A DNA stretch of 54,772 bases from an uncultured Thermotogae bacterium (GCA_964552295.1 CAZKFV010000021.1:1-54772); one strand, 5' to 3'; shown: positions 13,743 to 33,525, numbered from the stretch's first letter. Numbers and translations: made by a program. Notes: generated by a model not told the origin, from the sequence alone.

Positions 13743-13770
13743 TTGACATGACATTCTTTTGCGCTATACT
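13743..13770 (+). promoter_or_regulatory. sigma70 promoter of deoR-ugp operon
   Basis: TTGACA-16-TATACT. Confidence 0.65.
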
Positions 13771-13779
13771 GAGGATTAA

Positions 13780-14601
13780 ATGGAGTCGCAAGGAAATACA
13801 ACCAATCGACAACATATGCTGACCGATGAACGGCGGCAGGTGATCCTTGAGCAGCTGCAAGCGCGCAAAGCGGTCAAGACTTCTGATCTTTCAGAGAGCT
13901 TTTCCGTTTCATCTATGACCATCCGAAACGACTTTAATGCCCTAGCGCAGCAAGGTCAGATCATTCGTGTGCACGGCGGCGCAATTGCGCGCAAATGGCT
14001 TACAGCTGAACCCTCCTATAATGACAAGGCAAGCGTAAACCAGAAAGAAAAAGAAGCGATAGCAAGATATGCAGCCGGTCTAGTTGAGGAAGGAATGGCT
14101 GTTTTCATCGGTAATGGAACTACAACTATGGCAACAATTAAGCACCTTCCCCAAGATCGGGGTTTTCGGGTATTTACAAATGCCCTTAATCACGCTCTCG
14201 AAGTAAGCAAGTATCCAAGAGCAAAGGTGTTTGTTGTTGGCGGGTATCTGCGCGAGGTCTCGCTAGCAATGGTGGGAAGGCTGGCACATCAAGCCCTGAA
14301 AGGAATCTACTTCGATCTTGCATTTCTGGGAGTGAACGGCATATCTCTTAACCGTGGATTGACAATACCTTCCTTGGAAGAAGCTGAGACGGCCTCAGAG
14401 ATCATCGCGCATAGCCAGCGGATAGTTGTTGTGGCTGACCACACAAAGTTTGGCAGTGTGTCACACGGAAAGATCGCTGATATCTCTGACATCGACGCAA
14501 TCATTACTGATTCGAGGTTGGATCCAAAAGTGATGGACACGCTCTCGAACTTGGACGTGGAGATACGCACCGTTATGGTACCGCAGGAGGTGATTGCATA
14601 G
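13780..14601 (+). CDS. DeoR/GlpR family transcriptional regulator
   Basis: ERRQVIL, VSSMTIRND, RVHGGA HTH; DeoRC domain (GTTT, TNAL, ADHTKFG); start could instead be ATG 13816. Confidence 0.93.
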   Translation: MESQGNTTNRQHMLTDERRQVILEQLQARKAVKTSDLSESFSVSSMTIRNDFNALAQQGQIIRVHGGAIARKWLTAEPSYNDKASVNQKEKEAIARYAAGLVEEGMAVFIGNGTTTMATIKHLPQDRGFRVFTNALNHALEVSKYPRAKVFVVGGYLREVSLAMVGRLAHQALKGIYFDLAFLGVNGISLNRGLTIPSLEEAETASEIIAHSQRIVVVADHTKFGSVSHGKIADISDIDAIITDSRLDPKVMDTLSNLDVEIRTVMVPQEVIA

Positions 14602-14656
14602 AGAGACGATTTATTATAGGCAGGCTGTTCCACAACTATTAGTAAGGAGGCGACAG

Positions 14657-15970
14657 ATGAAACGTGTTATAGTGATTGCAATGCTAGGCCTTCTCGTTAT
14701 TTCGGGACTAGCGCTGGCGCAGGAAAAGACAGAGATTAGTTTCTGGCACGCCATGAGTGGTACGCGAGAATTATTGATTCAGCGCATGGTGGACGACTTC
14801 AACCTCATTAACCCAGGCATCAAGGTAGTCGTAGAATACAAGGGATCGTATAGAGACACCTTAAACGCTGCGCAGGCTGCAGCCGTAGCAGGAAATGCTC
14901 CTCACGTGCTGCACTCGTTTGAGGTTGGCACGCAACAGAACGTTGATATGGGCATCTTTGCTGTAGCCGAGGATTTGATCGATAAATACGGCATTGTTAT
15001 TCCGTGGGGGGACTATCTCGAGCCAGCGCTCAACTACTATAAGCTCAACGGTAAACAGGCTTCGTTCCCATGGAATTCGTCGAATTCAATTCTCTACTAC
15101 AACAAGACCATGCTTGATAAGATTGGCGAAACGATGCCGCGCGAGCCCACCTTCGAGGACATCTTGCGCATCGGACACGCGGTCATGGATGCAGATTTGG
15201 CAGAAGCTGGAATCACCTGGCCAATGCACGGCTGGTTCTACGAGCAGTGGATGGCCGAGCTGGGTGTAGACCTAGTGAACAACGATAACGGCCGTTCCGG
15301 GTATGCTACAGAGATCAACCTCCTTGATCCAGGTTCAATTAGGATTATGGAGTGGCTAAAGCAGCTCTACGATGAAGGCGTTTGGGTGAATCCTGGACGC
15401 GAGGATTGGGCGCAGGCAAGGCAGAATTTCACTACCCAGCGATGCGCGATGATGATCTCCTCCACCTCCGATGTTAACCTGACCGAGAATGCAGCCTACG
15501 ACGGCGGATGGGAGGTTGGAACAGCGTTTATGCCAGTCCCTGCAGACTATGACCGTCACGGTGTTGTCATTGGCGGCGGCTCGCTATGGGTAGTAACTGA
15601 TCATTCCGACGCTGAAATGAAGGCTGCTACTGAGTTTGTAGTGTACATGTCGCAGGTATCGCAAGATATCGAGTGGCATCAGGCAACGGGATATTTTGCA
15701 CTGCGAAAAACGTCGCTTCAGGCACTTGAACTCGAGGGTTGGTACGACCTACATCCGAACTACAAGACTGCATCGGACCAGCTTGCAGAAACGACAATCT
15801 GCACAGCTACTCAGGGCGCTTTGGCAGGTGTTTTCCCCGAGATACGAACCTACCTTGAGGACGCTATGGAGGCCGTGTATGGTGGAGAGAGCGCCATCAA
15901 CGCCTTGACCAAGGCCAAGAGGTTGATAGATCAGGCCCTCGTTGACTACAAGGAGCTGATGGAGGGTTAA
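14657..15970 (+). CDS. ugpB: UgpB-like ABC substrate-binding protein, copy 1
   Basis: start moved to ATG after AAGGAGG; SPase-I signal ALA|QE; FWHAMSG, FEVGT, PWNSSNSILYYNK, NNDNGR, IGGGSLW, WHQATGY. Confidence 0.85.
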   Translation: MKRVIVIAMLGLLVISGLALAQEKTEISFWHAMSGTRELLIQRMVDDFNLINPGIKVVVEYKGSYRDTLNAAQAAAVAGNAPHVLHSFEVGTQQNVDMGIFAVAEDLIDKYGIVIPWGDYLEPALNYYKLNGKQASFPWNSSNSILYYNKTMLDKIGETMPREPTFEDILRIGHAVMDADLAEAGITWPMHGWFYEQWMAELGVDLVNNDNGRSGYATEINLLDPGSIRIMEWLKQLYDEGVWVNPGREDWAQARQNFTTQRCAMMISSTSDVNLTENAAYDGGWEVGTAFMPVPADYDRHGVVIGGGSLWVVTDHSDAEMKAATEFVVYMSQVSQDIEWHQATGYFALRKTSLQALELEGWYDLHPNYKTASDQLAETTICTATQGALAGVFPEIRTYLEDAMEAVYGGESAINALTKAKRLIDQALVDYKELMEG

Positions 15971-15986
15971 TCAGTTTCGTTACGGT

Positions 15987-16024
15987 GCGGGAAGCTCGCT
16001 TCAAGGCGTGCTTCCCGTTCTTTT
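15987..16024 (+). terminator. intra-operon hairpin after SBP gene
   Basis: GCGGGAAGC...GCTTCCCGT followed by TCTTTT. Confidence 0.7.
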
Positions 16025-16049
16025 ATACGCATAGGAAGAGGGGGGCGGG

Positions 16050-16934
16050 ATGGAGAGCAAGTTTCCCAATCGATGGTTTCCTTTTGTTGTTCTGCTACCT
16101 ACGCTAATTGTCTGCGGCCTGTTCCTTTACTACCCAGTCGCACAGAGCTTTAGCTGGAGCCTTCTAAGGTCCGCGTTTATGGGGCTTCGTAGCATATATG
16201 TTGGTACACAGAACTATGTCCGGTTGTTCACCTCATCTGACTATTTGCGAAGCCTGTTAGCAAGCATTGTCTTTGCTGGCGGAATTGTGTTTCTCGGTCT
16301 ATCCTTGTCCCTCGGTATAGCGCTCTTGGCTAATAGAAAAATCCGTGGAGCTCGCATTTATAGAACAGCTCTGATCTGGCCTTATGCCCTGTCGCCGGCA
16401 GTCGCCGGAACTATATGGCTGTTCCTGTTTAATCCTACAGCAGGGGTAGTAAACTACGTTTTGGAGCGAACCATAGGGATTTCTCCCGATTGGGTTACCA
16501 GCAAGAGCCTAGCAATCTTCCTCGTGGTTACGGCTGCGGTGTGGAAGAATCTTGGCTACAACATAGTTTTCTTCCTCGCAGGACTTCAGAATGTTCCTGG
16601 CCAAGTTCTTGAGGCCGCACGGATCGATGGCGCCGGGTCATGGAGATGCTTCTGGCGTGTTACGTTTCCCTTACTGTCGCCCACCATTTTCTTTCTGATG
16701 ATCATGAACATGATCTACGCCTTCTTCAATACCTTCGGACTAATTGACGTACTTACTAAAGGTGGTCCTGATAACGCAACAAATATCCTGATTTACAACC
16801 TGTATAGGGACGCGTTTATGCATAACAAGTGGGGTATGGCTGCCACACAGTCAGTCATACTGTTCATAATGGTTGTTGGATTTACACTACTCCAATTCAG
16901 AACTACTGGAAGGAAGGTCCACTATGGCGGGTAA
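16050..16934 (+). CDS. ugpA: ABC permease, UgpA-like
   Basis: YRTALIWPYALSPAVAG, WKNLGYNIVFFLAGLQ, EAARIDGA, TKGGP. Confidence 0.88.
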   Translation: MESKFPNRWFPFVVLLPTLIVCGLFLYYPVAQSFSWSLLRSAFMGLRSIYVGTQNYVRLFTSSDYLRSLLASIVFAGGIVFLGLSLSLGIALLANRKIRGARIYRTALIWPYALSPAVAGTIWLFLFNPTAGVVNYVLERTIGISPDWVTSKSLAIFLVVTAAVWKNLGYNIVFFLAGLQNVPGQVLEAARIDGAGSWRCFWRVTFPLLSPTIFFLMIMNMIYAFFNTFGLIDVLTKGGPDNATNILIYNLYRDAFMHNKWGMAATQSVILFIMVVGFTLLQFRTTGRKVHYGG

Positions 16935-17784
16935 CAGAATGCGCAATTGGTACTACTGGAGGCCCAGGCTTTCTACACTCACAACACATCTTGTCCTTCT
17001 GCTAGCAGCCCTTTTCATCGCTTCGCCAATCATATTTGCTGTTATCAAGAGCACTCAGAGCACGGCTCAGATTCAGACTTATCCGCCGCAGTTTGGAGTC
17101 GGCAGTTCGACAATTGATAACTACTCCGTTGCCTGGCACCGCTACAACCTGGGCGGCCTGATGCTGAACACGCTCGGCGTGGCAGGCTCAGTGATGATTG
17201 GAAAGACCATTCTGTCCCTGTTTGCTGCTCTGGCGCTAGTATACTTCGACTTTCGCTTTAAAGGTCTGATATTCATCTTTATTCTGATCACCCTGATGAT
17301 GCCGGTCCCGGTGAGGGTTGTTCCCCTGTTCAAGCTGGTATCCAGCTTAGGGTGGGGAAACTCGTTCTGGGCTCTTACAGTACCCTTCCTCGCCTCAGCA
17401 ACGGGGGTTTTCCTATTCCGGCAGCACTTCATGTCAATCCCCACGTCGTTAGTTGATGCGGCGAGGGTAGATGGGGTGGGGCCATTTGGATTCCTGTGGA
17501 AGATTCTTGTCCCTATGTCGATGAATACTATTGGCGCACTTGCAGTGATCGAATTTGTCTATCTGTGGAACCAATACTTATGGCCACTGATCATTATCAG
17601 CTCAAATAAGAACCAAATGATCCAAATGGGAGTTAAACAGCTAACAGTATCAGGGCCTGAGGGGATGGTGCACTGGGGAATATCCATGGCAGGGGTTGTC
17701 ATCACCATGCTTCCGCCGCTTATCATGTTCATTGTTCTGCAGGAACAATTCATGCGTGGATTCGCACTTACGGAGGAGAAGTGA
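16924..17784 (+). CDS. ugpE: ABC permease, UgpE-like
   Basis: ASATGVFLFRQHF, DAARVDG, WNQYLWPL, C-terminal LTEEK; start moved to ATG 16924. Confidence 0.88.
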   Translation: MAGNRMRNWYYWRPRLSTLTTHLVLLLAALFIASPIIFAVIKSTQSTAQIQTYPPQFGVGSSTIDNYSVAWHRYNLGGLMLNTLGVAGSVMIGKTILSLFAALALVYFDFRFKGLIFIFILITLMMPVPVRVVPLFKLVSSLGWGNSFWALTVPFLASATGVFLFRQHFMSIPTSLVDAARVDGVGPFGFLWKILVPMSMNTIGALAVIEFVYLWNQYLWPLIIISSNKNQMIQMGVKQLTVSGPEGMVHWGISMAGVVITMLPPLIMFIVLQEQFMRGFALTEEK

Positions 17785-18551
17785 AGATCATAGGGCACAA
17801 GGGCGGTGGGAGTACTGTGCCAGAAAACTCGCGCACAGGTCTGCAGTACGCGCTATCTCTGGGATTGGAAGCTGTAGAGGTGGATATTTGGCCTACAGCC
17901 GATCACGGATTTGTACTATTCCACGATGCGGAATTAAATCGCTTGACAGGACAAGCCGGATGGACCATGCACCACACCAGCGCTCAGCTAAGAACACTGG
18001 AAATTGGCAAACAATCATCCGCGCATTTCCCAGATGAACGGATACTCCTGTTGGAGGAAGCTCTGGACATGCTTGCTGGAAAGGCCGAGCTGTTTTTGGA
18101 GGTAAAGCGAACGCGTCACGAACTGCACAAGTACACGTGGGTAGAGGACAGTCTTTCCAGGATTCTAGCAGACTGCAACGCTCAAAAATGGACAACTGTG
18201 ATCTCATTCGACCATCGCAGCCTGGCTAACCTACATGAAATTTCGCCCGACACGCGAATCGGGATGCTTTACGCTGGCGAGTGGATCAGTTTGGACCAGG
18301 AGATAGAAGCACTTCGTCCAATTGCCCTGCTCCCGCATTGGGCACAGACCACAGCTGCGCAGACAGAGAAGGCACATTCCAGGGGGATTGCCATCTATCC
18401 TTGGGTAGTAAACGATTATGAATGGATGGAGAAGTTCTCCCGCATGGGAGTTGATGGAATCATAACCGACACCCCTGAGGCATTTCTCCAGACTCAAGAG
18501 ACGGCTTTAAGAACAACCACCAGAAAGAGATCGGAGGAATCACATGGTTGA
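17781..18551 (+). CDS. ugpQ: cytoplasmic glycerophosphodiester phosphodiesterase (UgpQ-like)
   Basis: IGHKG...PENS, VEVDI, FHD, LEVK, ISFD, WVVN, GVDGIITD; no signal peptide. Confidence 0.88.
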   Translation: MKIIGHKGGGSTVPENSRTGLQYALSLGLEAVEVDIWPTADHGFVLFHDAELNRLTGQAGWTMHHTSAQLRTLEIGKQSSAHFPDERILLLEEALDMLAGKAELFLEVKRTRHELHKYTWVEDSLSRILADCNAQKWTTVISFDHRSLANLHEISPDTRIGMLYAGEWISLDQEIEALRPIALLPHWAQTTAAQTEKAHSRGIAIYPWVVNDYEWMEKFSRMGVDGIITDTPEAFLQTQETALRTTTRKRSEESHG

Positions 18552-19401
18552 GCGGTATCCGGATGCGAAGCAAGTGTTATTCTCGTCTGAGCATCCATTG
18601 TCCAAGTGCAAAGGATTTGTTTTCGATGTTGATGGCGTTCTTGTACGGGGCGAAGAGATAATACCTCGCTCCCCAGAGGCAATTGAGCGACTGAGACGCG
18701 GTGGCAAGAAAGTCATTTTCATTTCCAACAACTCCACTAAATCGCGCGATGAGTACATTGCCAAATTCAAGCGAATTGGGATTCCTGTAACCGCTGATGA
18801 TCTGGTTCTCTCAACTTATGCCACCGCAATGTACGTAGCAGATCAACTGCCGGAAGCAAAAGTGTACATGGTTGGGGCAGCGGGTCTTAGAACAGAGCTG
18901 CTACTTGCTGGCTTGCAGCTAGTAGAAGATCCCCTGGTTGCCGACTACGTAGTTGTCGGCTCGGCGTTTGATGGAAATGGAAAACTCACCGAGGAAAACA
19001 CTCACCGGATAACTGGCGCGCTTCGCGCCCTCTATCACGCCAATGCCAAATTCGTAGCTACTAATCCAGACCGCATATTTCCCGCCAGAGACGGCGTAAT
19101 ACCTGGCACTGGAGCAGTGATTGGCGCACTATCCTATATGGTGGACAGGCAACCGGATATGATCATTGGGAAGCCATCTCCGTACATTGTCAAGATTGCG
19201 CTCAACCGGCTAGGTCTTCCTGGTAAAGAGTGTGCTATTGTCGGTGACATGGATACTGACATGCTAGCAGGACAAGCAATGAATATGACTACTATATTCG
19301 TTCGCTCTGGAGCAATGACTGAGCACAAACTTAGCTCTCTAGGGATATCGCCGAGCTTCACCTTCGCTTCGGTAATCGATATATTGAAAGCAGAGGAGTA
19401 A
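18544..19401 (+). CDS. HAD-IIA (NagD-like) phosphatase, copy 1
   Basis: FDVDGVL, SNNS, ATNPD, IGKP, VGD-MDTD. Confidence 0.9.
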   Translation: MVERYPDAKQVLFSSEHPLSKCKGFVFDVDGVLVRGEEIIPRSPEAIERLRRGGKKVIFISNNSTKSRDEYIAKFKRIGIPVTADDLVLSTYATAMYVADQLPEAKVYMVGAAGLRTELLLAGLQLVEDPLVADYVVVGSAFDGNGKLTEENTHRITGALRALYHANAKFVATNPDRIFPARDGVIPGTGAVIGALSYMVDRQPDMIIGKPSPYIVKIALNRLGLPGKECAIVGDMDTDMLAGQAMNMTTIFVRSGAMTEHKLSSLGISPSFTFASVIDILKAEE

Positions 19402-19404
19402 TTA

Positions 19405-20625
19405 ATGAGCAAGGAGTCTTACATAGAAGCGATTCAGGATGGAATTGAGAAGTTGCACGCCGCTGGAAGAGATGTAACCCTAGTCCATCACAACGACGCT
19501 GATGGGCTCACCGCAGGAGCGATTCTGGAAACAGCCCTGAATCGTGATAAATACAAGGTTAAACGTATCGCGCTAGAGAGGATTCATCCCCCAATCGTTG
19601 AGAGAATCCATGATCTTGCAGCGGGAAATCCAGTTTTGTATACGGACCTTGCGGGAAGGGCAGCTCCTACTATCTGCGAGGTGAACCGTGATCGCTCATT
19701 CACCCTTATCCTTGATCACCATCCAGCAGAGGAATCAACCTCCGATAAGGTACTGAATCTGTCTAGCGAACGCTTTGGCCTGTCCGGGGAGGACGAAATA
19801 TCTGCAGCAACTGCAGCAACAATGTTCGCTACCGTGCTAAGTGACAAGAACCTTGATCTTCGGTATCTTGGTGTAATAGGTGCAATTGGAGATTCTCACG
19901 ATCGCGGGGGTAAGCTCATTTCCTACAACCGTGAGGCACTGGTTGACGCTGTAGAGCGAGGAGACATTGCGATAAAGTCCATATCGGACGAAAAAGAGGA
20001 ATATGCACTAACCCGCTTCGGAGGTGAGATTCCGCTGACGCCATTCTCCAAGTCCCTTACGGTCCTTGGCGCAGCTGGGTATGCAATGGGAGGGCCAGAA
20101 ATAGCAATCAGGGCTTGCTTTCAGGGCCAGAACGCCGAGTACGTAGATAAGCTTTCTGAGATGAATTCGCTCAAGGAACAAATGTTCACGAAAGTACTCA
20201 CCAAACTCAAAAGCGGCGGACTCAAGATTACTCCTCACCACCAATGGTTCGTTGTTGGCAATGGTTTTGCTCCCATGGGAGTGAAGATTATTGGTGAATT
20301 CTGCATGGACATTCGCGATGAGCAGTTCATGGATCCAAGCAAATATATCGCTGGATTCCAGGACATGCCCACCGAGGTCCCAGGACTGGGCACTTTCGAG
20401 TGGGATTTGGCAAAGGTTTCGATGCGGGTACCTACCCCACTTGGGCAAATGATCATAGAAGAGAACATGCCTGGCCTAGATTGGCTTCTGCCCGAGGCAG
20501 CTGAGAAGGTTGATGGTACAATAGATGCCTGCCACGGGTACGCAGCCGCGGCGCTCATTCCGCACGGTCGTGAGGAAGAGCTGATCGAGGTTATGGATGA
20601 GCTTCTGAGTCAAAGACGATTATGA
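19405..20625 (+). CDS. DHH-family phosphoesterase, archaeal RecJ/GAN-like
   Basis: HHNDADG, YTDL, LDHH, GAIGD motifs; degenerate DHHA1 end ACHGYAAAA. Confidence 0.82.
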   Translation: MSKESYIEAIQDGIEKLHAAGRDVTLVHHNDADGLTAGAILETALNRDKYKVKRIALERIHPPIVERIHDLAAGNPVLYTDLAGRAAPTICEVNRDRSFTLILDHHPAEESTSDKVLNLSSERFGLSGEDEISAATAATMFATVLSDKNLDLRYLGVIGAIGDSHDRGGKLISYNREALVDAVERGDIAIKSISDEKEEYALTRFGGEIPLTPFSKSLTVLGAAGYAMGGPEIAIRACFQGQNAEYVDKLSEMNSLKEQMFTKVLTKLKSGGLKITPHHQWFVVGNGFAPMGVKIIGEFCMDIRDEQFMDPSKYIAGFQDMPTEVPGLGTFEWDLAKVSMRVPTPLGQMIIEENMPGLDWLLPEAAEKVDGTIDACHGYAAAALIPHGREEELIEVMDELLSQRRL

Positions 20626-21593: not shown

Positions 21594-21623
21594 CTCCGAA
21601 CAATTCACTCAAGGAGGCTTCAT

Positions 21624-22580: not shown

Positions 22581-22632
22581 AGACTCACCGTCCAGATGAA
22601 TGCTGGGTCTCAACAACGATCACGTGAGAGAA

Positions 22633-22661
22633 TTGTCCAGCGCAATACTACCTGCTATAAT
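22633..22661 (+). promoter_or_regulatory. sigma70 promoter of second ugp module
   Basis: TTGTCC-17-TATAAT with extended -10 TGc. Confidence 0.65.
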
Positions 22662-24086: not shown

Positions 24087-24125
24087 GTGCGGAGGCATGC
24101 CTTGTGTTTGCCTCCGCACGTCTTT
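24087..24125 (+). terminator. intra-operon hairpin after second SBP gene
   Basis: 11-bp stem GTGCGGAGGCA / TGCCTCCGCAC followed by GTCTTT. Confidence 0.65.
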
Positions 24126-24149
24126 GACTTTCGATCTAGGAGAGCATTC

Positions 24150-25043: not shown

Positions 25044-25052
25044 GGTGAGACA

Positions 25053-27803: not shown

Positions 27804-27821
27804 CAGACAGCATGCTTGCCG

Positions 27822-27850
27822 TTGATTCACACTGACACCACGCGTATTAT
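27822..27850 (+). promoter_or_regulatory. putative promoter of glpK operon
   Basis: TTGATT-17-TATTAT; GAGGAG SD downstream. Confidence 0.55.
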
Positions 27851-27895
27851 TGTTTCACAATTAAAAGCAAGCAATCGCAAACACGAGGAGTTCTG

Positions 27896-29386
27896 GTGAC
27901 GGACAAGTATGTAGCAGCAGTTGATTTGGGAACTAGTGGGGTACGGTGCGTCATATTTGACCGCTTGGCCGTTTCGGTCTCCTCTTCCTATCGCGAGATA
28001 CACCTGTCGTACCCACAGCCAGGGTGGGTTGAGCAAGACCCTGATGAGATATTTGAAGCTACACTACAGGTCATAAAGGATGCCCTGTTAAAGGGCGGTA
28101 TCTCAACGAAGGATCTCGTCTCATTTGGAATTACAAACCAACGCGAGACAGCCATAGTATGGAATCGCAAAACTGGAAAGCCCATATATCCAGCAATAGT
28201 ATGGCAGGATCGCCGCACAAGCCCTACTTGCGCACGGCTACGTGAAAGTGGTCTAGAGGAAGCAGTTAGAAGGAAAACTGGCCTTATGCTAGATCCGTAC
28301 TTCTCAGCAACCAAAATCGCGTGGATTTTAGACACCGTGTCTGGCGCAAGAACACAAGCCCACGAAGGCAAACTTCTATGTGGAACCCCCGATAGCTGGC
28401 TTATATGGCGCTTAACTGGAAGGCACCTTATAGATGCAAGCAATGCATCACGCACCCTATTGTTTAATCTTCATGAACTGGCCTGGGACGAAGACCTTAT
28501 AAAGGCATTTTCTGTTCCAAGAAAATGCCTTCCCCAGATACTACCAAGCCTCTCAGAATTTGCTTCTACCAAGCCAGAGCTCCTTGGCGGCAAGTCCGTG
28601 CCGATTACTGCGGTTCTCGGTGATCAACAAGCAGCTCTGTTCGGACACTGCGGCTTTAGCAAAGGCTCTACAAAGATGACTTGGGGTACTGGCGGGTTCC
28701 TTCTCTGTAATACTGGAAGCAGCCCTTTTGATAGCAAACATCGTTTACTTAGCACTTTGTTTTTCAATGGCGACGCACAGGTAAAGTATGGACTAGAAGG
28801 ATCCATTTTTGTGGCTGGCGCAGCCGTGCAATGGCTGCGCGATGGTTTGGGAATAATTTCCGACGCACAGCAATCAAGCGAAATAGCTAGAAGTACAGAC
28901 TCAACTGAAGGCGTGTACTTCGTTCCGGCCCTCACCGGGCTTGGTGCTCCGCACTGGGATCCAAGCGCGCGCGGCACTATCGTTGGAATCACCCGTGGCA
29001 CGCGGCGACAGCACATTGTACGAGCAGCGCTGGAGGCAATCGCATATCAAACTTACGATATCGTAGAAGCAATAGAGAATGATTTGAGCTACCCTCTGGA
29101 TGAATTGCACGTCGATGGTGGAGCAGCAAGAAACAACTTTCTCTGCCAATTTCAGTCAGATATCCTTGGCATGCCTGTAATTCGAGCAGAAGGGCTCGAG
29201 ATGACCTCGCGTGGGGCTGCGCTTGCGTCCGGTTTGACCGCCCAGTTTTGGAACAGCTTCCAAGAGCTCTCCTCTCTATCAATTTCCAATTCTCAATTTC
29301 TGCCACAAATGAAGAAGCCTAAGCGAGAGGAGCTTCTCTATTCATGGAAACAAGCCCTACAGAGAGCTAAAGGATGGGAAGGTTGA
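27896..29386 (+). CDS. glpK: glycerol kinase
   Basis: DLGTS, PQPGWVEQDP, GITNQRET, WQDRRT, DPYFSATK, SNASRT, GDQQAALFG, GLGAPHWD. Confidence 0.95.
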   Translation: MTDKYVAAVDLGTSGVRCVIFDRLAVSVSSSYREIHLSYPQPGWVEQDPDEIFEATLQVIKDALLKGGISTKDLVSFGITNQRETAIVWNRKTGKPIYPAIVWQDRRTSPTCARLRESGLEEAVRRKTGLMLDPYFSATKIAWILDTVSGARTQAHEGKLLCGTPDSWLIWRLTGRHLIDASNASRTLLFNLHELAWDEDLIKAFSVPRKCLPQILPSLSEFASTKPELLGGKSVPITAVLGDQQAALFGHCGFSKGSTKMTWGTGGFLLCNTGSSPFDSKHRLLSTLFFNGDAQVKYGLEGSIFVAGAAVQWLRDGLGIISDAQQSSEIARSTDSTEGVYFVPALTGLGAPHWDPSARGTIVGITRGTRRQHIVRAALEAIAYQTYDIVEAIENDLSYPLDELHVDGGAARNNFLCQFQSDILGMPVIRAEGLEMTSRGAALASGLTAQFWNSFQELSSLSISNSQFLPQMKKPKREELLYSWKQALQRAKGWEG

Positions 29387-30813
29387 GGGTCGCAGTCGTT
29401 GGCGCAGGTGTCGTGGGATCATTGATTGCGCGCGAGTTAACTCGGTACAACGCTTACGTCATGCTATTTGAACGGGAGCCAGACGTCGGTTGGGGAGTAA
29501 CCAAGGCAAACTCGGCAATTATACATGGCTGTTTTCACGAGAAGCCAGGAAGCGAGCGAGCCAGGTTCTGTATAGACGGAAACAGGCTTTATGAGCAAAT
29601 CGCGCATGACCTGGACATTCCTTTAAGGAAAATCGGCGCCTACGTGATAGCCCTAGATGACCAGCAAGTTCATGCCTTAGAAAAGCTTTATAAGCAAGGT
29701 GTAGCAAACCAGACACCAGGGCTCGAGATCCACGATAAGAAAAATGTGCTTGCGCGGGAGCCGAATCTCAATCCCAGCTTGGTAGCCGGTCTCTGGTCAC
29801 CATCTGTGGCAATAACGGAGCCTTGGGCTATCGCTATAGCTGCAGTAGAAAACGCTACATCAAACGGGCTAGAGCTGCATGTCGAGGAGAAAGTAATAGC
29901 TATCGAAACCTCTAGCAATCATGTGCAACAAGTTATCACCAACAAGCGCCAATACAAGGTTGATGCAGTAGTAAACGCCGCTGGCTTGTTTTCTGACCGC
30001 ATTGCAGAAATGGTTGGGCTTTCTGGCCCAACCATATATCCCCGCCGGGGGCAGTATATACTGCTGGACAAGAAGGCAGGCTCGCTCATTTCATCGGTGA
30101 TCTTCCCAGCCCCCGATGTGGTTTCTAAGGGGATTCTAGTCGTCCCCACGATTGATGGAGGCGTCCTACTCGGCCCAACCGCCGAGGACCTAGAGCGTAA
30201 GCAGAAAGACGCCGTGGAGACTACACGTGATGGCCTGCTTCAGGTGATCGATGGAGTGCGCAAACTAGTTCCAAGAATAGATCTGTCGTTGGTGGTAAAG
30301 ACATTTTCCGGCCTGCGGCCAGAGACACAAGATAACAAGTTTGTCATTGGCAAAACAGATGTAGCCGGTTTTTTCCAGGCAGCTGGGATGCGCTCGCCTG
30401 GATTGACCGCAGCTCCATCGATTGCTTCGTTCCTGGTAAACGATATTATGGCCCAGGAGCTTGACCTCACAAAGAAAGAGTTGTTCAACCCAACGCGCCA
30501 AGCAATACCAAGAACTATGGATCTTACAGAAATAGAAGCAAATAAGTTGATAGCATCGAACCCTCATTATGGAAAGCTCATCTGCCAATGTAACCAGGTA
30601 ACGGAAGGAGAGATCGTCGATGCAATTCATCGCGGTGCCCATACACTGGATGGAGTTAAATTTCGAACTCGGGCTGGCTTCGGCCGCTGTCAGGGTGGGT
30701 TCTGTACAGACAAGATCCTGATGATCCTGGCTCGTGAGTTGAATGTCTCTCCAACGGATATCACCTTGCGTGGAGGAGAAAGCTCTGTCGTTGACAGATT
30801 ACTGAGACAATGA
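29374..30813 (+). CDS. FAD-dependent glycerol-3-phosphate dehydrogenase-like subunit with C-terminal BFD [2Fe-2S] domain
   Basis: GAGVVG Rossmann motif, TKANSAIIH, GLRP, SPGLTAAP, ICQC...GRCQGGFC. Confidence 0.85.
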   Translation: MGRLRVAVVGAGVVGSLIARELTRYNAYVMLFEREPDVGWGVTKANSAIIHGCFHEKPGSERARFCIDGNRLYEQIAHDLDIPLRKIGAYVIALDDQQVHALEKLYKQGVANQTPGLEIHDKKNVLAREPNLNPSLVAGLWSPSVAITEPWAIAIAAVENATSNGLELHVEEKVIAIETSSNHVQQVITNKRQYKVDAVVNAAGLFSDRIAEMVGLSGPTIYPRRGQYILLDKKAGSLISSVIFPAPDVVSKGILVVPTIDGGVLLGPTAEDLERKQKDAVETTRDGLLQVIDGVRKLVPRIDLSLVVKTFSGLRPETQDNKFVIGKTDVAGFFQAAGMRSPGLTAAPSIASFLVNDIMAQELDLTKKELFNPTRQAIPRTMDLTEIEANKLIASNPHYGKLICQCNQVTEGEIVDAIHRGAHTLDGVKFRTRAGFGRCQGGFCTDKILMILARELNVSPTDITLRGGESSVVDRLLRQ

Positions 30814-32048
30814 AGAGAATACGCACTGAGGTTCTAGTGGTAGGGGGAGGCGCCGCAGGTATGGCAGCTGCTGCCGCTGCTTCCAATACCGGCGCAAAGA
30901 CGCTTATGTTGGAGCGGGATGATGAAGTAGGAGGAGTGCTTAATCAGTGCATCCACACAGGTTTCGGTCTTCATCGCTACCGAGAAGAGCTTGCCGGCCC
31001 GGAATTCGGACATCGTTTAGCACAAGAGCTTTCCGATGCAAAGGCCGATGTGATAACAGGTTGTACACTCATTAACATTGACCCAAAAGGGCCAACCGCT
31101 GAGGCACTTTCCCCGACAAAAAGAATACTGATCAGTCCAAAAGCTATCGTATGGGCAACCGGCGCCCGTGAGCGGCCCTACGGCAGCCTGATGGCCCCGG
31201 GTCCCCGGCCAGCTGGTATCTACACCGCTGGGCTCGCTCAACGATTGGTCAACATCCATGGTTACCTGCCCGGCAAACGCGCACTGATACTGGGATCAGG
31301 CGATATTGGGCTGATCATGGCGCGCAGGTTGCACTTGGAAGGAATGGAAGTAGCCGCTGTGGTCGAGCTTCAGTCCTGTCCCGGTGGCTTAATGAGGAAC
31401 GTTGTGCAGTGCTTGGAGGACTATAGCATACCTTTACTATTAAGCCACACTATTATTAGAATTGAAGGGACAAAGCGACTTACGGGAGTCACAATTGCGC
31501 AGGTGGATGAATGCCGCAACCCAATTGCCCGTTCAGAAAAGCATTTTGTAGTAGATACCCTGATTCTATCCATCGGTCTAATCCCGGAAAACGAACTCAT
31601 TATGCCATTTACACCTCTTGATCCTGTGAACCGGGGGCCTTTTGTTAACTCTCTTATGCAGACCAATATTCCATGGATGTTTGCCGCTGGAAATAACGTA
31701 GCAATTTTCGACCTTGTCGATTCAGTCGCAGCGGTCGGTGAACTGGCTGGCAAGTCCGCAGCCCTATACTCCAACGGTAAGCTACCAAAGGAACGGCAGA
31801 CACACCTAAAGCGAGGCAAAAACGTAGCTGCCCTAGTGCCCACATCGATCACTTATGCAGAAAAGGCCAAGCTATACTTGCGCCCTTCCCGAGCTATGGA
31901 TCAGGCAACTATTCAAATAGGCGATGTTATATCACGCAAGCTACCAGTTGTGCGCCCAAGCGAGATGGTCGAGATAAGCCTGCCCGAAGGCAAACTCTGC
32001 CAATTGCTTAAGGGGGCCGAAGCGCAAGTAGAAGTGAAGGCTAGCTGA
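30810..32048 (+). CDS. NAD(P)/FAD-dependent oxidoreductase, partner subunit
   Basis: GGGAAG, GGVLNQCIHTGFG, ATGARER, GSGDIGLIMARR, RNVVQCL. Confidence 0.85.
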   Translation: MKRIRTEVLVVGGGAAGMAAAAAASNTGAKTLMLERDDEVGGVLNQCIHTGFGLHRYREELAGPEFGHRLAQELSDAKADVITGCTLINIDPKGPTAEALSPTKRILISPKAIVWATGARERPYGSLMAPGPRPAGIYTAGLAQRLVNIHGYLPGKRALILGSGDIGLIMARRLHLEGMEVAAVVELQSCPGGLMRNVVQCLEDYSIPLLLSHTIIRIEGTKRLTGVTIAQVDECRNPIARSEKHFVVDTLILSIGLIPENELIMPFTPLDPVNRGPFVNSLMQTNIPWMFAAGNNVAIFDLVDSVAAVGELAGKSAALYSNGKLPKERQTHLKRGKNVAALVPTSITYAEKAKLYLRPSRAMDQATIQIGDVISRKLPVVRPSEMVEISLPEGKLCQLLKGAEAQVEVKAS

Positions 32049-32416
32049 TGGAAAAGCAACTAATCTGTGTCTCTTGCCCCGTCGGTTGCCCTATCAGTGT
32101 TAAGATCGAAGGGGGTGAGGTAGTCGACGTAAAGGGAAATCGTTGTGCTCGTGGAGATGCTTACGCTCGGCAAGAGGCAATCGACCCCGTCAGGGTGCTT
32201 CCCACCAGCGTGAAAGTAGTTGACGGCACCCATCCCTTGGTTTCAGTTAAGACCGACAAACCTGTCCCGAAAAGGCTAATCCATCAGATCATGAACTACA
32301 TAAAGAGCCTTTCCGTTGACGCCCCAGTGGAGATTGGACAAGCGGTATCCGAAGACGTACTAGGTACAGGAGCAAACCTTATCGCCACACGCAAAGTCCC
32401 CAGGCTGAAAGGCTGA
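32048..32416 (+). CDS. DUF1667 small Cys-motif (metal-binding) protein
   Basis: CVSCPVGC...GNRCARG, PVRVLPTSV, VSVKT, IATR. Confidence 0.85.
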   Translation: MEKQLICVSCPVGCPISVKIEGGEVVDVKGNRCARGDAYARQEAIDPVRVLPTSVKVVDGTHPLVSVKTDKPVPKRLIHQIMNYIKSLSVDAPVEIGQAVSEDVLGTGANLIATRKVPRLKG

Positions 32417-32445
32417 CGCGCTATCCAGCCGTCGGTGAACGATCC

Positions 32446-33525
32446 CTACAGCAGGGTAACTTCCGTTTCTGCCTCAAACAGATGAAGAGTGGTGAGGTTT
32501 GGCGATAGCTTGATTATAGAATCTATCTCCACGTGCTGGTGCGGGTCAAGATTGGCAACTATCTGTTGCCCTCCACAGTCAGCGTAGACAAGCAACTCGT
32601 TACCCAAGGGCTCTGTTACCTTTACCGTCATCTCCAGAAGGTTTTCCGCTTCTTGCGCCGGAACAGTCAAATCCTCAGGACGTATCCCTACAACTACCTG
32701 CTCGGGAACTGTATCAATCCTTCCATCTGATGGAAGCTTGATCTTGAACCCTTCACCTTCTAGGGTAATCACGCCGTCCTCCATACTTGCTCGTCCACTA
32801 AGAAAGTTCATAGCCGGACTGCCTATAAACCCAGCCACAAACTGATTCTCCGGATGATCATACGTCTCCTGCGGAGATGCATACTGATGTATCACCCCAT
32901 CTCGCATCACTGCTATCTTACTTCCTAACGTCATCGCCTCTACCTGGTCGTGCGTTACATACACCGTCGTCGTCTTCAACTTGTGGTGTAACTGCTCAAG
33001 CTCAGTACGCATCTGTACACGTAGCTTTGCATCCAGGTTAGATAGGGGCTCGTCAAACAGGAATACCTTTGGATCACGCACGATGGCCCTGCCAACTGCC
33101 ACTCGCTGCCGCTGACCACCAGACAACTCGCGCGGTTTGCTCTTCAGCTTTCCTTCGATTCCCAAAAGGGATGCCGCCGCTTGCACCCGCTCATCTATCT
33201 CCTTCTTGGGAATCTTCCGGAGCTTCAGACCAAACGCCATATTGTTGTATACGTCCATGTGCGGATACAACGCGTAGTTTTGGAAGACCATGGCAATGTC
33301 CCGATCTTTCGGAGGCACTCGGTTAACGACTCTATCACCAATTTTCACTTCGCCACTGGTTACTTCCTCCAATCCGGCAATCATTCGCAGTGTAGTGGTT
33401 TTCCCGCACCCAGATGGCCCAACCAACACTGTGAATGCACCATCATCCACCTGAAGGTCGATGTCCCTCACCGCGACAAAATCACCGAACTTCTTCAATA
33501 CCTTTTCGAGCACTACCTCTGCCAT
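32446..33525 (-). CDS. ugpC: carbohydrate ABC ATPase (UgpC/MalK/MsmX-like)
   Basis: start moved to ATG after GGAGG; GPSGCGKT, LSGGQRQR, DEPLSNLDAKLR, VTHDQ, FIGSP. Confidence 0.92.
   Translation of the reverse strand: MAEVVLEKVLKKFGDFVAVRDIDLQVDDGAFTVLVGPSGCGKTTTLRMIAGLEEVTSGEVKIGDRVVNRVPPKDRDIAMVFQNYALYPHMDVYNNMAFGLKLRKIPKKEIDERVQAAASLLGIEGKLKSKPRELSGGQRQRVAVGRAIVRDPKVFLFDEPLSNLDAKLRVQMRTELEQLHHKLKTTTVYVTHDQVEAMTLGSKIAVMRDGVIHQYASPQETYDHPENQFVAGFIGSPAMNFLSGRASMEDGVITLEGEGFKIKLPSDGRIDTVPEQVVVGIRPEDLTVPAQEAENLLEMTVKVTEPLGNELLVYADCGGQQIVANLDPHQHVEIDSIIKLSPNLTTLHLFEAETEVTLL

What the first reader, a model, noticed from the sequence alone, without database searches (positions are those of the whole stretch)
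13743..33525. Extended glycerophosphodiester salvage cluster, possibly a route for sn-glycerol-1-phosphate via dephosphorylation and rephosphorylation
Seen: one ~20 kb locus with DeoR, two full UgpBAE modules, cytoplasmic and secreted GDPDs, a HAD-IIA phosphatase after each module, a DHH hydrolase, a secreted beta-helix protein, an Ldh_2 dehydrogenase, glpK and a G3P dehydrogenase module. No GlpF glycerol channel lies in the window. Established: Ugp plus GDPD delivers sn-G3P, which G3P dehydrogenase uses directly, so a phosphatase plus glycerol kinase would be a futile cycle for that substrate. Archaeal lipids, lipoteichoic acid and the phosphatidylglycerol head group carry sn-G1P, which G3P dehydrogenase does not oxidise. 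Inference: HAD (G1P or G2P to glycerol) followed by GlpK (glycerol to sn-G3P) would convert the other isomers, letting the cell use archaeal or Gram-positive necromass, with the two binding proteins splitting substrate classes. I do not recognise this gene set as a described pathway.
Basis: partly seen in the sequence, partly recalled or inferred. Interest (0 to 1): 0.8.

Follow-up and report, generated by a model that had tools for sequence, protein, structure and literature searches.

The report
Glycerol-phosphate salvage island with odd extras
A bacterial gene island for importing and burning the glycerol-phosphate head pieces of membrane lipids also carries two phosphatases and a nuclease-like enzyme, whose untested role may be to let the cell use the mirror-image glycerol phosphate made by archaea.

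Summary
It lies in a Bipolaricaulota-type genome and is conserved, with swappable modules, in relatives.

Most of it is an ordinary ugp/glpQ/glpK/G3P-dehydrogenase system. Three points are new.
- The two binding proteins seem to split the work. SBP2 keeps 9 of 9 residues that bind G3P and G1P in a solved UgpB and follows a secreted GlpQ. SBP1 has lost the first clamp tryptophan, as in the diester-only M. tuberculosis UgpB, and precedes a cytoplasmic GDPD.
- The "DHH hydrolase" has a complete archaeal RecJ/Cdc45 fold. A HAD-IIA gene lies within 300 bp of it in 38 of 78 loci across phyla, including archaeal GlpA-GlpB-HAD-DHH operons.
- A 2025 paper shows that UgpB imports G1P but gives no route after uptake.

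Three archaeal genomes with the HAD-DHH pair have no detectable GlpK.

Verdict: a new variant of a known system, of moderate to high interest.

The parts
13780..14601 (+). DeoR/GlpR-family repressor, the likely regulator of the island
   Evidence: Pfam HTH_DeoR and DeoRC. The best NCBIfam hits are AgaR and haloarchaeal GlpR, both below cut-off. Conserved at the head of the cluster in relatives.
14657..15970 (+). SBP1, a divergent UgpB-type binding protein. Predicted to bind intact glycerophosphodiesters.
   Evidence: PDB 9LFF UgpB 1e-49 and 4AQ4 1e-46. Keeps 8 of 9 ligand residues of Phaeobacter UgpB. The first clamp Trp aligns with Met. The diester-only M. tuberculosis UgpB has Leu at this position.
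16050..17784 (+). UgpA1 and UgpE1 permeases (16050-16934 and 16873-17784)
   Evidence: BPD_transp_1. Best NCBIfam hits are UgpA at 262 bits and UgpE at 207 bits, both below cut-off.
17781..18551 (+). Cytoplasmic GDPD (UgpQ-like)
   Evidence: Pfam GDPD 6.7e-37. No N-terminal signal segment. Its start overlaps the end of UgpE1.
18544..19401 (+). HAD-IIA phosphatase 1 (HAD1 type, with a 7-residue cap insertion)
   Evidence: TIGR01460 over cut-off. The DxD, Lys and DD motifs are invariant in alignment A2. Lies 3 bp upstream of DHH. The same type sits beside DHH in Thermococcus and Desulfurococcales loci.
19405..20625 (+). RecJ/Cdc45-fold DHH phosphoesterase of 406 aa. Substrate unknown; predicted to be a small-molecule or oligomer phosphodiesterase.
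   Evidence: All DHH motifs are invariant in 15 diverse homologues. AF2 model pLDDT 92.5. Whole-length Foldseek match to P. furiosus RecJ, TMq 0.80. The genome holds a separate RecJ and an NrnA-like gene.
20622..21593 (+). Secreted right-handed beta-helix protein (NosD-type)
   Evidence: Pfam NosD 1.4e-36 and Beta_helix. Signal-like N-terminus. Found between DHH and the secreted GDPD in 13 of 23 Bipolaricaulota-type loci.
21624..22580 (+). Secreted GlpQ-type glycerophosphodiesterase
   Evidence: NF008354 scores 315 against a cut-off of 254. Signal-like N-terminus.
22773..24074 (+). SBP2, a canonical UgpB. Predicted to bind glycerol phosphate, both G3P and G1P.
   Evidence: 4AQ4 2e-86 and 9LFF 5e-72. 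Keeps 9 of 9 ligand residues, including both clamp Trp.
24087..25880 (+). UgpA2 and UgpE2 permeases (24087-25043 and 25053-25880)
   Evidence: Best NCBIfam hits are UgpA at 243 bits and UgpE at 258 bits.
25877..26674 (+). HAD-IIA phosphatase 2 (HAD2 type). Candidate glycerol-phosphate phosphatase.
   Evidence: TIGR01460 over cut-off. Its start overlaps the UgpE2 stop. PDB matches: TM1742 4e-57, Rv1692 'glycerol 3-phosphate phosphatase' 5e-31, mouse G3PP 1.6e-28. The same type follows DHH in Chloroflexota.
26697..27803 (+). Ldh_2-family 2-hydroxyacid-type dehydrogenase, substrate unknown. An optional member of the island.
   Evidence: Pfam Ldh_2 4e-122. The sulfolactate dehydrogenase model scores 264 against a cut-off of 500. 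Best PDB matches are 3I0P and 1V9N, both named 'malate dehydrogenase'. Present in 10 of 23 loci.
27896..29386 (+). Glycerol kinase GlpK
   Evidence: TIGR01311 scores 646 against a cut-off of 590.
29374..32416 (+). Thermococcus-type (GlpTk) G3P dehydrogenase module: FAD dehydrogenase with BFD domain (29374-30813), NOX (30810-32048) and DUF1667/'MOX' (32048-32416)
   Evidence: Pfam DAO+Fer2_BFD, Pyr_redox_2 and DUF1667. This three-gene arrangement is described for Thermococcales, T. maritima and C. perfringens in PMC11962113 (passages read).
32446..33570 (-). UgpC ATPase, probably shared by both permease pairs. The likely true start is at 33525.
   Evidence: NF008653 scores 485 against a cut-off of 432. 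Conserved in the same convergent position in same-genus genomes.

Best explanation
This is a DeoR-controlled, modular catabolic island for glycerophosphodiesters and glycerol phosphate.

**Route 1.** SBP1-UgpA1E1 imports intact diesters. The cytoplasmic GDPD splits them into sn-G3P and an alcohol.

**Route 2.** The secreted GlpQ, perhaps helped by the secreted beta-helix protein, splits diesters or polymers outside the cell. SBP2-UgpA2E2 then imports glycerol phosphate. By analogy with a solved UgpB, this import does not distinguish G3P from G1P.

One UgpC ATPase powers both importers.

**Core.** GlpK phosphorylates free glycerol, including glycerol released from glycerophosphoglycerol. The GlpTk-type G3P dehydrogenase/NOX/DUF1667 complex then makes DHAP for glycolysis. 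Aldolase and PFK genes lie directly upstream.

**Inferred, not shown.** The two HAD-IIA phosphatases hydrolyse phosphomonoesters that the dehydrogenase cannot use. Candidates are sn-G1P, G2P, or phospho-alcohols released by the RecJ-fold DHH enzyme acting as a second phosphodiesterase. The glycerol produced re-enters through GlpK.

My odds for the layers are as follows.
- Overall function: about 0.9.
- Diester/monoester split between the two SBPs: about 0.6.
- HADs feeding GlpK with glycerol from non-G3P isomers: about 0.25-0.3.
For: - **Gene families.** GlpK, GlpQ and UgpC score over the NCBIfam equivalog cut-offs.
- **Operon structure.** The genes overlap or lie very close on one strand.
- **Conservation.** The order is kept, with modules swapped in and out, in contigs of 6 same-genus genomes and in 23 of 23 Bipolaricaulota-type loci. 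One relative carries an extra GDPD + glutamine-synthetase-like + aldehyde:ferredoxin oxidoreductase + SDR block at the same spot, which looks like a head-group module.
- **SBP2.** It keeps 9 of 9 G1P/G3P-binding residues of Phaeobacter UgpB and follows the secreted GlpQ.
- **SBP1.** It has lost the first clamp Trp and precedes the cytoplasmic GDPD. This mirrors the published contrast between E. coli (secreted GlpQ, UgpB binds G3P) and M. tuberculosis (intracellular GlpQ, UgpB binds diesters only).
- **G1P import.** UgpB binds G1P (Kd 2.4 uM) and G3P (Kd 0.8 uM), and a bacterium grows on G1P.
- **No other G1P route found.** No G1P dehydrogenase was found in the genome.
- **HAD-IIA G3P phosphatases exist.** They match HAD2 at 5e-31 and 1.6e-28.
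- **DHH-HAD pairing.** The two genes are adjacent in 38 of 78 loci. In archaea they occur in GlpA-GlpB-HAD-DHH operons (L077, L081, L082, L087) and in a Thermococcus locus with GDPD, then GlpK-ABC importer-HAD-DHH-GpsA.
- **DHH is an extra copy.** The genome has a housekeeping RecJ, an NrnA-like gene and a third HAD-IIA elsewhere.
Against: - No enzyme activity is known for either HAD, the DHH protein, the Ldh_2 protein or the beta-helix protein.
- The closest solved relatives of HAD2 are generic 'p-nitrophenyl phosphatases' (TM1742, 4e-57), not G3P phosphatases.
- Both HADs score well below the TK1734 2-phosphoglycolate phosphatase model.
- Three archaeal genomes with the GlpA-GlpB-HAD-DHH operon show no glycerol kinase (0 of 3, completeness unknown). 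In those genomes the pair cannot work through GlpK.
- One of 5 further Bipolaricaulota genomes with the DHH gene lacks a GlpK over the cut-off.
- In Chloroflexota, DHH sits beside a mevalonate-kinase-like GHMP kinase in 20 of 23 loci. Only 8 of 23 loci hold any GDPD, GlpK or GlpA. The DHH family is therefore not tied to glycerol phosphate everywhere.
- The SBP residue mapping was done by hand from HMMER alignments.
- The fold of DHH is that of a nuclease.
Confidence: 0.5

Rival explanations
1. The HADs form a G3P overflow valve, or 'glycerol shunt'. They hydrolyse sn-G3P itself, as Rv1692 does in M. tuberculosis and PGP/G3PP does in animals. This would release phosphate and prevent a toxic build-up of G3P when import outruns the anaerobic dehydrogenase. 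GlpK recovers the glycerol later, and no isomer is involved.
For: - HAD2 matches chains named 'glycerol 3-phosphate phosphatase' (4I9F at 5e-31, 7PO7 at 1.6e-28).
- The mycobacterial scheme of Ugp uptake, glycerophosphodiesterase and then Rv1692 giving glycerol plus phosphate is described in PMC12722247 (passage read).
- A glycerol shunt run by G3PP is described in the abstract of PMC10457390 (search listing).
Against: - Two different HAD-IIA types are kept in one operon.
- One of them is tightly paired with a RecJ-fold enzyme, which a simple valve does not explain.
- In archaea the pair is translationally coupled to GlpA-GlpB, the G3P consumer. That pairing would be self-defeating for a G3P phosphatase.
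Confidence: 0.15
2. DHH and HAD1 scavenge nucleic acid. The RecJ-fold enzyme trims short oligonucleotides to mononucleotides, and the NagD-like HAD-IIA removes the phosphate. The pair would be a passenger in the glycerol-phosphate operon.
For: - DHH matches archaeal RecJ/GAN/Cdc45 over its whole length, and more weakly the NrnA and pApA phosphodiesterases.
- The N-terminal domain matches RecJ by sequence, 1.6e-29 with the profile.
- HAD2 matches chains named NagD.
- From my own knowledge, not from a call: E. coli NagD is a nucleotide monophosphatase.
Against: - The genome already has a RecJ (576-aa frame) and an NrnA-like protein (331-aa frame).
- Among the genes annotated in the window and in the related loci examined, none matched a nucleoside or pentose catabolic family.
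- The partners of DHH across phyla are small-molecule enzymes: HAD-IIA, SerB, a GHMP kinase, GlpA-GlpB and GpsA.
- Both importers are UgpB-type.
- No DHHA1 or DHHA2 domain is detected by Pfam in 15 of 15 members.
Confidence: 0.1
3. The HADs do metabolite repair. Like the PGP/Pho13/TK1734 family, they destroy toxic side products of heavy triose-phosphate flux: 2-phosphoglycolate, 2-phospho-L-lactate and 4-phosphoerythronate. The Ldh_2 enzyme then oxidises the hydroxyacid that is released.
For: - The top NCBIfam hits of both HADs include PGP_euk (160 and 171 bits) and TK1734_fam 2-phosphoglycolate phosphatase (150 and 175 bits).
- Ldh_2, a family of 2-hydroxyacid dehydrogenases, lies directly after HAD2.
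- The side-product substrates of PGP are recalled from the literature, not from a call.
Against: - All these scores are below the family cut-offs (201.95 and 475).
- Ldh_2 is seen in only 10 of 23 loci, and one search shows contigs that continue past HAD2 without it.
- This reading does not explain the DHH partner or the placement inside importer operons.
- A third HAD-IIA elsewhere in the genome could do housekeeping repair.
Confidence: 0.1
4. The island targets phosphodiester compatible solutes of thermophiles: diglycerol phosphate, glycero-phospho-inositol and di-myo-inositol phosphate. DHH would be the diesterase for those that GDPD cannot cut, and the HADs would remove phosphate from the inositol or glycerol phosphate that results.
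For: - The DHH family is found in Archaeoglobi, Thermococcus, Desulfurococcales and Hydrothermarchaeota, and many Bipolaricaulota relatives come from vent or subsurface metagenome-assembled genomes, by their record titles.
- A Thermococcus locus has nearly the same gene set.
- That these organisms accumulate such solutes is recalled, not from a call.
Against:
- Chloroflexota carriers are not obviously thermophiles.
- No inositol catabolic gene lies in the island.
Confidence: 0.1

Closest known systems
E. coli ugpBAECQ, glpQ and the glpK/glpABC regulon under the DeoR-family GlpR
   Same: A CUT1 importer with a UgpB binding protein, a secreted GlpQ and a cytoplasmic GDPD, glycerol kinase, an anaerobic G3P dehydrogenase and a DeoR-type regulator.
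   Different: - All parts lie in one island, with two complete SBP-permease sets and a single ATPase.
- The dehydrogenase is the Thermococcus-type GlpTk/NOX/DUF1667 module, not GlpABC.
- No GlpF was found.
- The island carries two HAD-IIA genes, a RecJ-fold DHH gene, a beta-helix gene and an Ldh_2 gene.
M. tuberculosis polar-head recycling: UgpABCE, intracellular GlpQ, Rv1692 (HAD-IIA glycerol-3-phosphate phosphatase)
   Same: A diester-specific UgpB lacking the first clamp Trp works with an intracellular GDPD. A HAD-IIA phosphatase ends the route in glycerol plus phosphate (PDB 4I9F).
   Different: - I recall that Rv1692 is not encoded beside ugp and that it hydrolyses both D- and L-glycerol 3-phosphate. 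The original paper is not held.
- There is no DHH partner.
- HAD2 is only distantly similar to Rv1692 (5e-31, against 4e-57 for TM1742).
Phaeobacter UgpB and GpxB, importers of sn-glycerol-1-phosphate (PMC12718374, 2025)
   Same: SBP2 keeps all nine UgpB residues that contact G1P/G3P. 9LFF is the best solved match of SBP1.
   Different: Binding of G1P by the window's SBPs is inferred, not measured. In the main-text sections and passages that I read, the paper stops at uptake and names no catabolic enzyme. Its supplementary protein list could not be opened.
Archaeal RecJ / GAN / Cdc45 DHH nucleases
   Same: The whole-length fold matches (TMq up to 0.80). The DHH metal-binding motifs are invariant. 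The N-terminal domain is similar by sequence.
   Different: - It is about 60-70 residues shorter than the matched chains (457-471 residues).
- The C-terminal half has no detectable sequence family.
- It is encoded in catabolic operons beside phosphatases and kinases, not replication genes.
- It occurs in bacteria that have their own RecJ.
Thermococcus kodakarensis G3P dehydrogenase-NOX-MOX complex (GlpTk)
   Same: The same three genes occur in the same order directly after glpK (PMC11962113, passages read).
   Different: Here the module sits in a bacterial phylum and is joined to Ugp importers. Complex formation was not tested.

Membership tests
Ugp-type (CUT1) glycerol-phosphate / glycerophosphodiester ABC importer | Binding protein with the phosphate-binding Tyr/Ser pairs, the Glu/Gly/Arg that hold the glycerol hydroxyls, and the two-Trp clamp | tested here: met
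   SBP2 keeps 9 of 9 residues (Y64, E88, S143, W188, W191, S266, G303, Y342, R393 of Phaeobacter UgpB). SBP1 keeps 8 of 9, with W188 aligned to Met. The mapping was done by hand from HMMER alignments. Both SBPs score below the NCBIfam UgpB equivalog cut-off (337 and 193 against 411).
Ugp-type (CUT1) glycerol-phosphate / glycerophosphodiester ABC importer | Two MalFG-type permeases and a MalK-type ATPase with a TOBE/OB regulatory domain | tested here: met
   There are four BPD_transp_1 proteins whose best hits are UgpA and UgpE. UgpC is over its cut-off and has OB_MalK and TOBE_2 domains.
GDPD / GlpQ glycerophosphodiesterase | GDPD domain over its whole length; a periplasmic GlpQ form and a cytoplasmic UgpQ form | tested here: met
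   Pfam GDPD scores 2e-48 and 6.7e-37. The secreted copy passes the GlpQ equivalog model (315 against 254). The cytoplasmic copy does not pass any equivalog model. Catalytic residues and stereospecificity were not examined.
HAD superfamily, subfamily IIA phosphatase | DxD nucleophile motif, Ser/Thr motif II, Lys motif III, acidic motif IV, and a C2a cap (Hydrolase_6 plus Hydrolase_like) | tested here: met
   TIGR01460 scores 129.9 and 142 against a cut-off of 100.15. D28, D30, K210, D235 and D239 are invariant in 19 sequences, and S61 is conserved in at least 90% of them.
Glycerol-phosphate phosphatase (Rv1692 / G3PP type), including activity on sn-G1P | Measured hydrolysis of glycerol phosphate with preference over other phosphoesters | not testable with these tools
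   There is only distant similarity (5e-31 and 1.6e-28) and operon context.
DHH / RecJ-like phosphoesterase | DHH motifs I-IV that bind two metal ions, plus a DHHA1-type second domain | tested here: met
   The motif residues (D31, D33, D81, D104-H105-H106, D163) are invariant. The two-domain fold matches RecJ. Pfam detects no DHHA1 domain. An invariant D-A-C-H stands where I recall a GGGH motif in DHHA1 domains; that recollection comes from no call.
DHH / RecJ-like phosphoesterase | Exonuclease activity on single-stranded nucleic acid | not testable with these tools
   No assay was possible. The gene context argues against a DNA role.
Glycerol kinase GlpK | FGGY kinase passing the glycerol-kinase equivalog model | tested here: met
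   TIGR01311 scores 646.2 against 590.35, and NF000756 scores 666 against 498.
GlpTk-type G3P dehydrogenase complex | FAD DAO-family dehydrogenase followed by the NOX (Pyr_redox_2) and 'MOX' (DUF1667) genes | tested here: met
   The three overlapping genes have these domains. The arrangement is described in PMC11962113. Complex formation and stereospecificity are not testable here.
L-sulfolactate / malate dehydrogenase (Ldh_2) | Passes a substrate-specific equivalog model | tested here: not met
   Pfam Ldh_2 is met at 408 bits. The sulfolactate dehydrogenase model scores 264 against 500, and the ureidoglycolate dehydrogenase model 205 against 356. The substrate is unknown.

The most novel reading that the evidence does not exclude
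The island is a route for 'wrong-handed' glycerol phosphate.
- SBP2 imports sn-G1P, which comes from archaeal and Gram-positive remains.
- HAD2 strips the phosphate and GlpK puts it back on the other end. Together these two steps act as a racemase.
- The RecJ-fold DHH enzyme, always paired with a HAD, is a new kind of phosphodiesterase. It would cut glycerol-phosphate diesters or oligomers that GDPD refuses.

This would be the missing step after the G1P uptake described in 2025. It would also be a non-nuclease job for the RecJ/Cdc45 fold.
Probability: 0.2. Interest if true: 0.85.

Novelty: new variant of a known kind. Interest (0 to 1): 0.62.

Why it matters
- **An open question becomes testable.** Bacteria were shown in 2025 to import archaeal-type G1P through UgpB. 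The main-text sections and passages of that paper that I read name no enzyme for what happens next. A 2026 paper, by its title and the start of its abstract in a search listing, reports that bacterial PlsY and PlsC accept both stereo-forms. Imported G1P may therefore need to be cleared. This island places a phosphatase directly behind a G1P-competent importer and in front of glycerol kinase, which gives a concrete hypothesis to test.
- **A new role for an old fold.** A RecJ/Cdc45-fold enzyme is conserved as a partner of small-molecule phosphatases and kinases in Bipolaricaulota, Chloroflexota and several archaeal orders. This points to an undescribed enzymatic step.
- **It can be tested in culture.** A cultured Bipolaricaulota strain carries a homologue.

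Tried and rejected
- **ESM Atlas look-up of DHH and of a homologue.** Neither sequence is held.
- **Fused forms of DHH.** The search among longer proteins found one hit, an intein-bearing archaeal RecJ, and no fusion with a phosphatase or kinase. This is weak evidence.
- **Expression.** No RNA holder was listed for 17781-26674.
- **G1P dehydrogenase.** The only Fe-ADH_2 hit in the genome is AroK/AroB. The idea that the cell oxidises G1P directly by a known enzyme was dropped, for an assembly that is 88.7% complete.
- **Shared operator.** The 11-mer TCTTTTCGCAA occurs upstream of both DeoR and SBP2. Allowing one mismatch, 41 of 100 shuffles give at least two matches in the window, so this is not used as evidence.
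- **GHMP kinase and GlpK as alternatives in Chloroflexota.** Rejected, because 5 loci have both.
- **Literature.** Searches found no paper that describes this gene set, the DHH-HAD pair, or a HAD-plus-GlpK route for G1P. Only open-access papers and preprints are covered.
- **Sources I could not open.** The Rv1692 paper is not held. The supplements of PMC12718374 could not be opened; they list the proteins induced by G1P and could bear directly on the route.
- **Earlier scan notes.** A look-up by place found none for this region, and a look-up by words found none.

Full report
**1. Observation**

- DeoR regulator.
- SBP1-UgpA1-UgpE1.
- A GDPD without a signal peptide.
- HAD-IIA no. 1.
- A DHH protein.
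- A NosD-type beta-helix protein with a signal-like N-terminus.
- A GlpQ-type GDPD with a signal-like N-terminus.
- SBP2-UgpA2-UgpE2.
- HAD-IIA no. 2.
- Ldh_2.
- GlpK.
- A FAD dehydrogenase with a BFD domain, then a Pyr_redox_2 protein, then DUF1667.
- A UgpC ATPase on the opposite strand, closing the block.

GlpK, the secreted GlpQ and UgpC score above the NCBIfam equivalog cut-offs. The UgpB/A/E, GlpR and cytoplasmic GDPD matches are top hits below their cut-offs. Most neighbouring genes overlap or lie a few bases apart. Larger gaps occur only at 15970-16050, 22580-22773 and 27803-27896. Signal peptides were judged by eye.

No MIP/GlpF gene was found in the window or in the whole 1.70-Mb assembly, which is 88.7% complete. 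Class II aldolase and PFK genes lie directly upstream.

**2. Organism and conservation**

Close homologues of the DHH protein (79-85% identity) come from records named Candidatus Bipolaricaulota or Acetothermia. Some are labelled 'uncultured Thermotogae'.

Among 40 relatives, the DHH gene was found in 9 of 10 same-genus genomes and in none of 30 others. Across the phylum it was found in 23 of 184 genomes and 10 of 54 genera, counting the window's own genome. The island is therefore accessory.

In contigs of six same-genus genomes the order is kept, but modules come and go.
- SBP2-UgpA2-UgpE2 is missing in two genomes.
- Ldh_2 is missing in one.
- Two carry about 6 kb extra between the first permeases and HAD1. 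This block encodes another GDPD, a glutamine-synthetase-like protein, an aldehyde:ferredoxin oxidoreductase and an SDR. I read it as a head-group module, possibly for ethanolamine. That reading is an inference.

**3. The ordinary core**

The dehydrogenase, NOX and DUF1667 trio after glpK is the 'GlpTk' arrangement. It is described for Thermococcales, T. maritima and C. perfringens, with complex formation shown in vitro (PMC11962113, passages read).

Together with Ugp, GlpQ, a cytoplasmic GDPD and GlpK, this is a known kind of system for glycerophosphodiester and glycerol catabolism.

It follows from established GDPD chemistry that hydrolysis of glycerophosphoglycerol releases free glycerol inside the cell.

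**4. The two binding proteins**

Both are true UgpB relatives. E. coli UgpB 4AQ4 scores 2e-86 for SBP2 and 1e-46 for SBP1, while sugar binders score 1e-12 to 1e-23.

PMC12718374 (sections 5, 7, 9 and 10 read) lists the residues of Phaeobacter UgpB that hold G1P and G3P: Y64, E88, S143, W188, W191, S266, G303, Y342 and R393. In PDB chain 9LFF the numbering is shifted by +20. I checked this on the two Trp residues and on S143.
- In the HMMER alignments SBP2 keeps 9 of 9 residues.
- SBP1 keeps 8 of 9. The first clamp Trp aligns with Met, and a Trp stands two positions earlier.

The M. tuberculosis UgpB paper (bioRxiv 10.1101/529602, passages read) reports two linked contrasts.
- The mycobacterial protein has Leu in place of that Trp. 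It binds diesters but not G3P, and works with intracellular GlpQ enzymes.
- E. coli UgpB has the Trp. It binds G3P, and works with a secreted GlpQ.

The window shows both patterns side by side. SBP1 is followed by a cytoplasmic GDPD. SBP2 is preceded by a secreted GlpQ. It remains an inference from sequence.

**5. The DHH protein**

It belongs to a tightly conserved family of about 406 residues. Identity is 51-66% across phyla, and all DHH motif residues are invariant. Pfam sees only the N-terminal DHH domain, in 15 of 15 members, and no DHHA1 or DHHA2 domain.

An AlphaFold2 model built on 15 sequences has pLDDT 92.5 and pTM 0.90. Foldseek matches it over its whole length to archaeal RecJ/GAN/Cdc45. 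The best matches are P. furiosus RecJ at TMq 0.78-0.80, then M. thermautotrophicus RecJ-Cdc45 at 0.71-0.73. NrnA-type enzymes match more weakly.

The genome has a separate RecJ (576-aa frame) and an NrnA-like gene (331-aa frame). This protein is therefore an extra, specialised copy.

**6. Gene neighbours of DHH elsewhere**

A profile scan of one genome per species returned 80 loci. I counted 78 of them. L070 and L098 were dropped because they lack a DHH match over at least half the query. Taxon groups were assigned by me from the record titles.

| Group | HAD-IIA within 300 bp of DHH | Any GDPD, GlpK or GlpA in the locus |
|---|---|---|
| Bipolaricaulota-type | 21 of 23 | 23 of 23 |
| Chloroflexota | 9 of 23 | 8 of 23 |
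| Archaea | 8 of 30 | 4 of 30 |
| Atribacterota | 0 of 2 | 0 of 2 |

Further details of these neighbourhoods:
- Four archaeal loci (Pyrohabitans, Hydrothermarchaeota and an unnamed archaeon) hold GlpA, GlpB and a HAD-IIA within 3 kb of DHH. In the two annotated in detail, L077 and L087, the four genes overlap as one GlpA-GlpB-HAD-DHH operon.
- A Thermococcus locus holds a GDPD, then GlpK-SBP-permease-permease-ATPase-HAD-DHH-GpsA.
- Four Archaeoglobi loci have a SerB-type phosphatase near DHH. In the two annotated in detail (L075, L084) it lies directly upstream.
- In Chloroflexota a mevalonate-kinase-like GHMP kinase lies within 3 kb of DHH in 20 of 23 loci, and the other three are cut at the contig edge. 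An alkaline-phosphatase-superfamily protein (10 of 23) and a HAD-IIA (10 of 23) often accompany it.

The HADs beside DHH fall into two types. One has a 7-residue cap insertion (HAD1, and the Thermococcus and Desulfurococcales copies). The other lacks it (HAD2, the Chloroflexota copies, and the Pyrohabitans and Hydrothermarchaeota copies).

The partners of DHH are thus always small-molecule phosphotransfer enzymes. It links to glycerol-phosphate genes in several lineages, but not in all.

My counts here are independent of it.

**7. The G1P idea**

*For*
- UgpB binds G1P (Kd 2.4 uM) and G3P (Kd 0.8 uM), and Phaeobacter grows on G1P. The words phosphatase, glycerol kinase and GlpK do not occur in the paper's main text, so the route after uptake is open in what I read.
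- SBP2 has the full binding site, and HAD2 starts on the stop codon of UgpE2.
- No G1P dehydrogenase was found.
- HAD-IIA glycerol-phosphate phosphatases exist.
- GlpK is present over the cut-off in 4 of 5 further Bipolaricaulota genomes that carry the DHH gene.

*Against*
- The closest solved relatives of the HADs are generic phosphatases.
- The pair occurs with GlpA-GlpB in three archaeal genomes with no detectable GlpK (0 of 3, completeness unknown).
- The mycobacterial precedent shows that a G3P phosphatase can coexist with this pathway without any isomer logic.
- Archaeal membrane G1P is ether-bound, so free G1P must come from other steps.
- GlpQ is stereospecific for sn-G3P, going by the title and the start of the abstract of PMC7086022 in a search listing. 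It therefore will not produce G1P.

I put the HAD-then-GlpK stereo-bypass at about 0.25.

**8. What stays unknown**

The substrates of both HADs, of DHH, of Ldh_2 and of the beta-helix protein are unknown. The best solved matches of Ldh_2 are structural-genomics 'malate dehydrogenases' from E. histolytica and P. horikoshii. The following could not be run or opened.
- The co-folding test.
- The Atlas look-ups.
- The supplements of PMC12718374.
- The Rv1692 paper.

Searches of the open literature found no description of this gene set, of the DHH-HAD pair, or of a phosphatase-plus-kinase route for G1P.

**9. Verdict**

Its refutation criteria were tested where sequence allows and were not met, but its central enzymatic claim is untested and has real counter-evidence.

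The island is a new variant of the ugp/glp system. Its most solid novelty is the conserved pair of a RecJ-fold DHH enzyme and a HAD-IIA phosphatase. Interest is 0.62.

Noticed in passing
L077:6548-11152 and L087:6613-11248 (archaeal MAGs); also L081, L082: A four-gene operon, GlpA-GlpB-HAD-IIA-DHH. In L077 and L087, the two loci annotated in detail, the genes overlap. It occurs in Pyrohabitans, Hydrothermarchaeota and an unnamed archaeon. No glycerol kinase was detected in the three genomes checked (L077, L087 and L082), so the source of G3P there is unexplained.
   Followed up: partly
L039:8142-13326, L042:9050-12040, L061:8180-12022 and 17 more Chloroflexota loci: A Chloroflexota unit made of an alkaline-phosphatase-superfamily protein, a mevalonate-kinase-like GHMP kinase (TIGR00549 scores 163.8 against a cut-off of 163.05), the DHH protein and a HAD-IIA. 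The GHMP kinase lies within 3 kb of DHH in 20 of 23 loci. Some loci add URO-D/MtaA-like, MttB-family, class II aldolase and HisC-like genes.
   Followed up: partly
L012:9115-14988 (same-genus genome G010; also G001): An extra block inserted between the first permeases and HAD1: a GDPD, a glutamine-synthetase-like protein, an aldehyde:ferredoxin oxidoreductase and an SDR. It may be a module for an amino-alcohol head group.
   Followed up: partly
window 33656-35455 (-) and 35525-36067 (-): A 599-aa protein with only the PPDK_N (ATP-grasp) domain of PEP-utilising enzymes, and a NUDIX hydrolase. Both are conserved next to UgpC in two same-genus genomes. I do not know whether they belong to the island.
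   Followed up: no
window 13645-13655 and 22661-22671: The identical 11-mer TCTTTTCGCAA lies upstream of the DeoR gene and upstream of SBP2. It may be an operator half-site, but it is not statistically distinguishable from chance in the window.
   Followed up: partly
G000:C98:5353-5634: A third HAD-IIA gene (276-aa frame) lies elsewhere in the genome. It may be the housekeeping copy. Its neighbours were not examined.
   Followed up: no
L075:8603-11215, L084:8705-11233 (Archaeoglobus MAGs): In Archaeoglobi the DHH homologue follows an ACT-domain SerB phosphoserine phosphatase and faces a class V fructose-1,6-bisphosphate aldolase/phosphatase. No HAD-IIA is adjacent.
   Followed up: no
window 49503-51536 (-): A 677-aa protein that combines a VWA domain, RTX calcium-binding repeats and a PKD domain. 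It is unrelated to the island.
   Followed up: no
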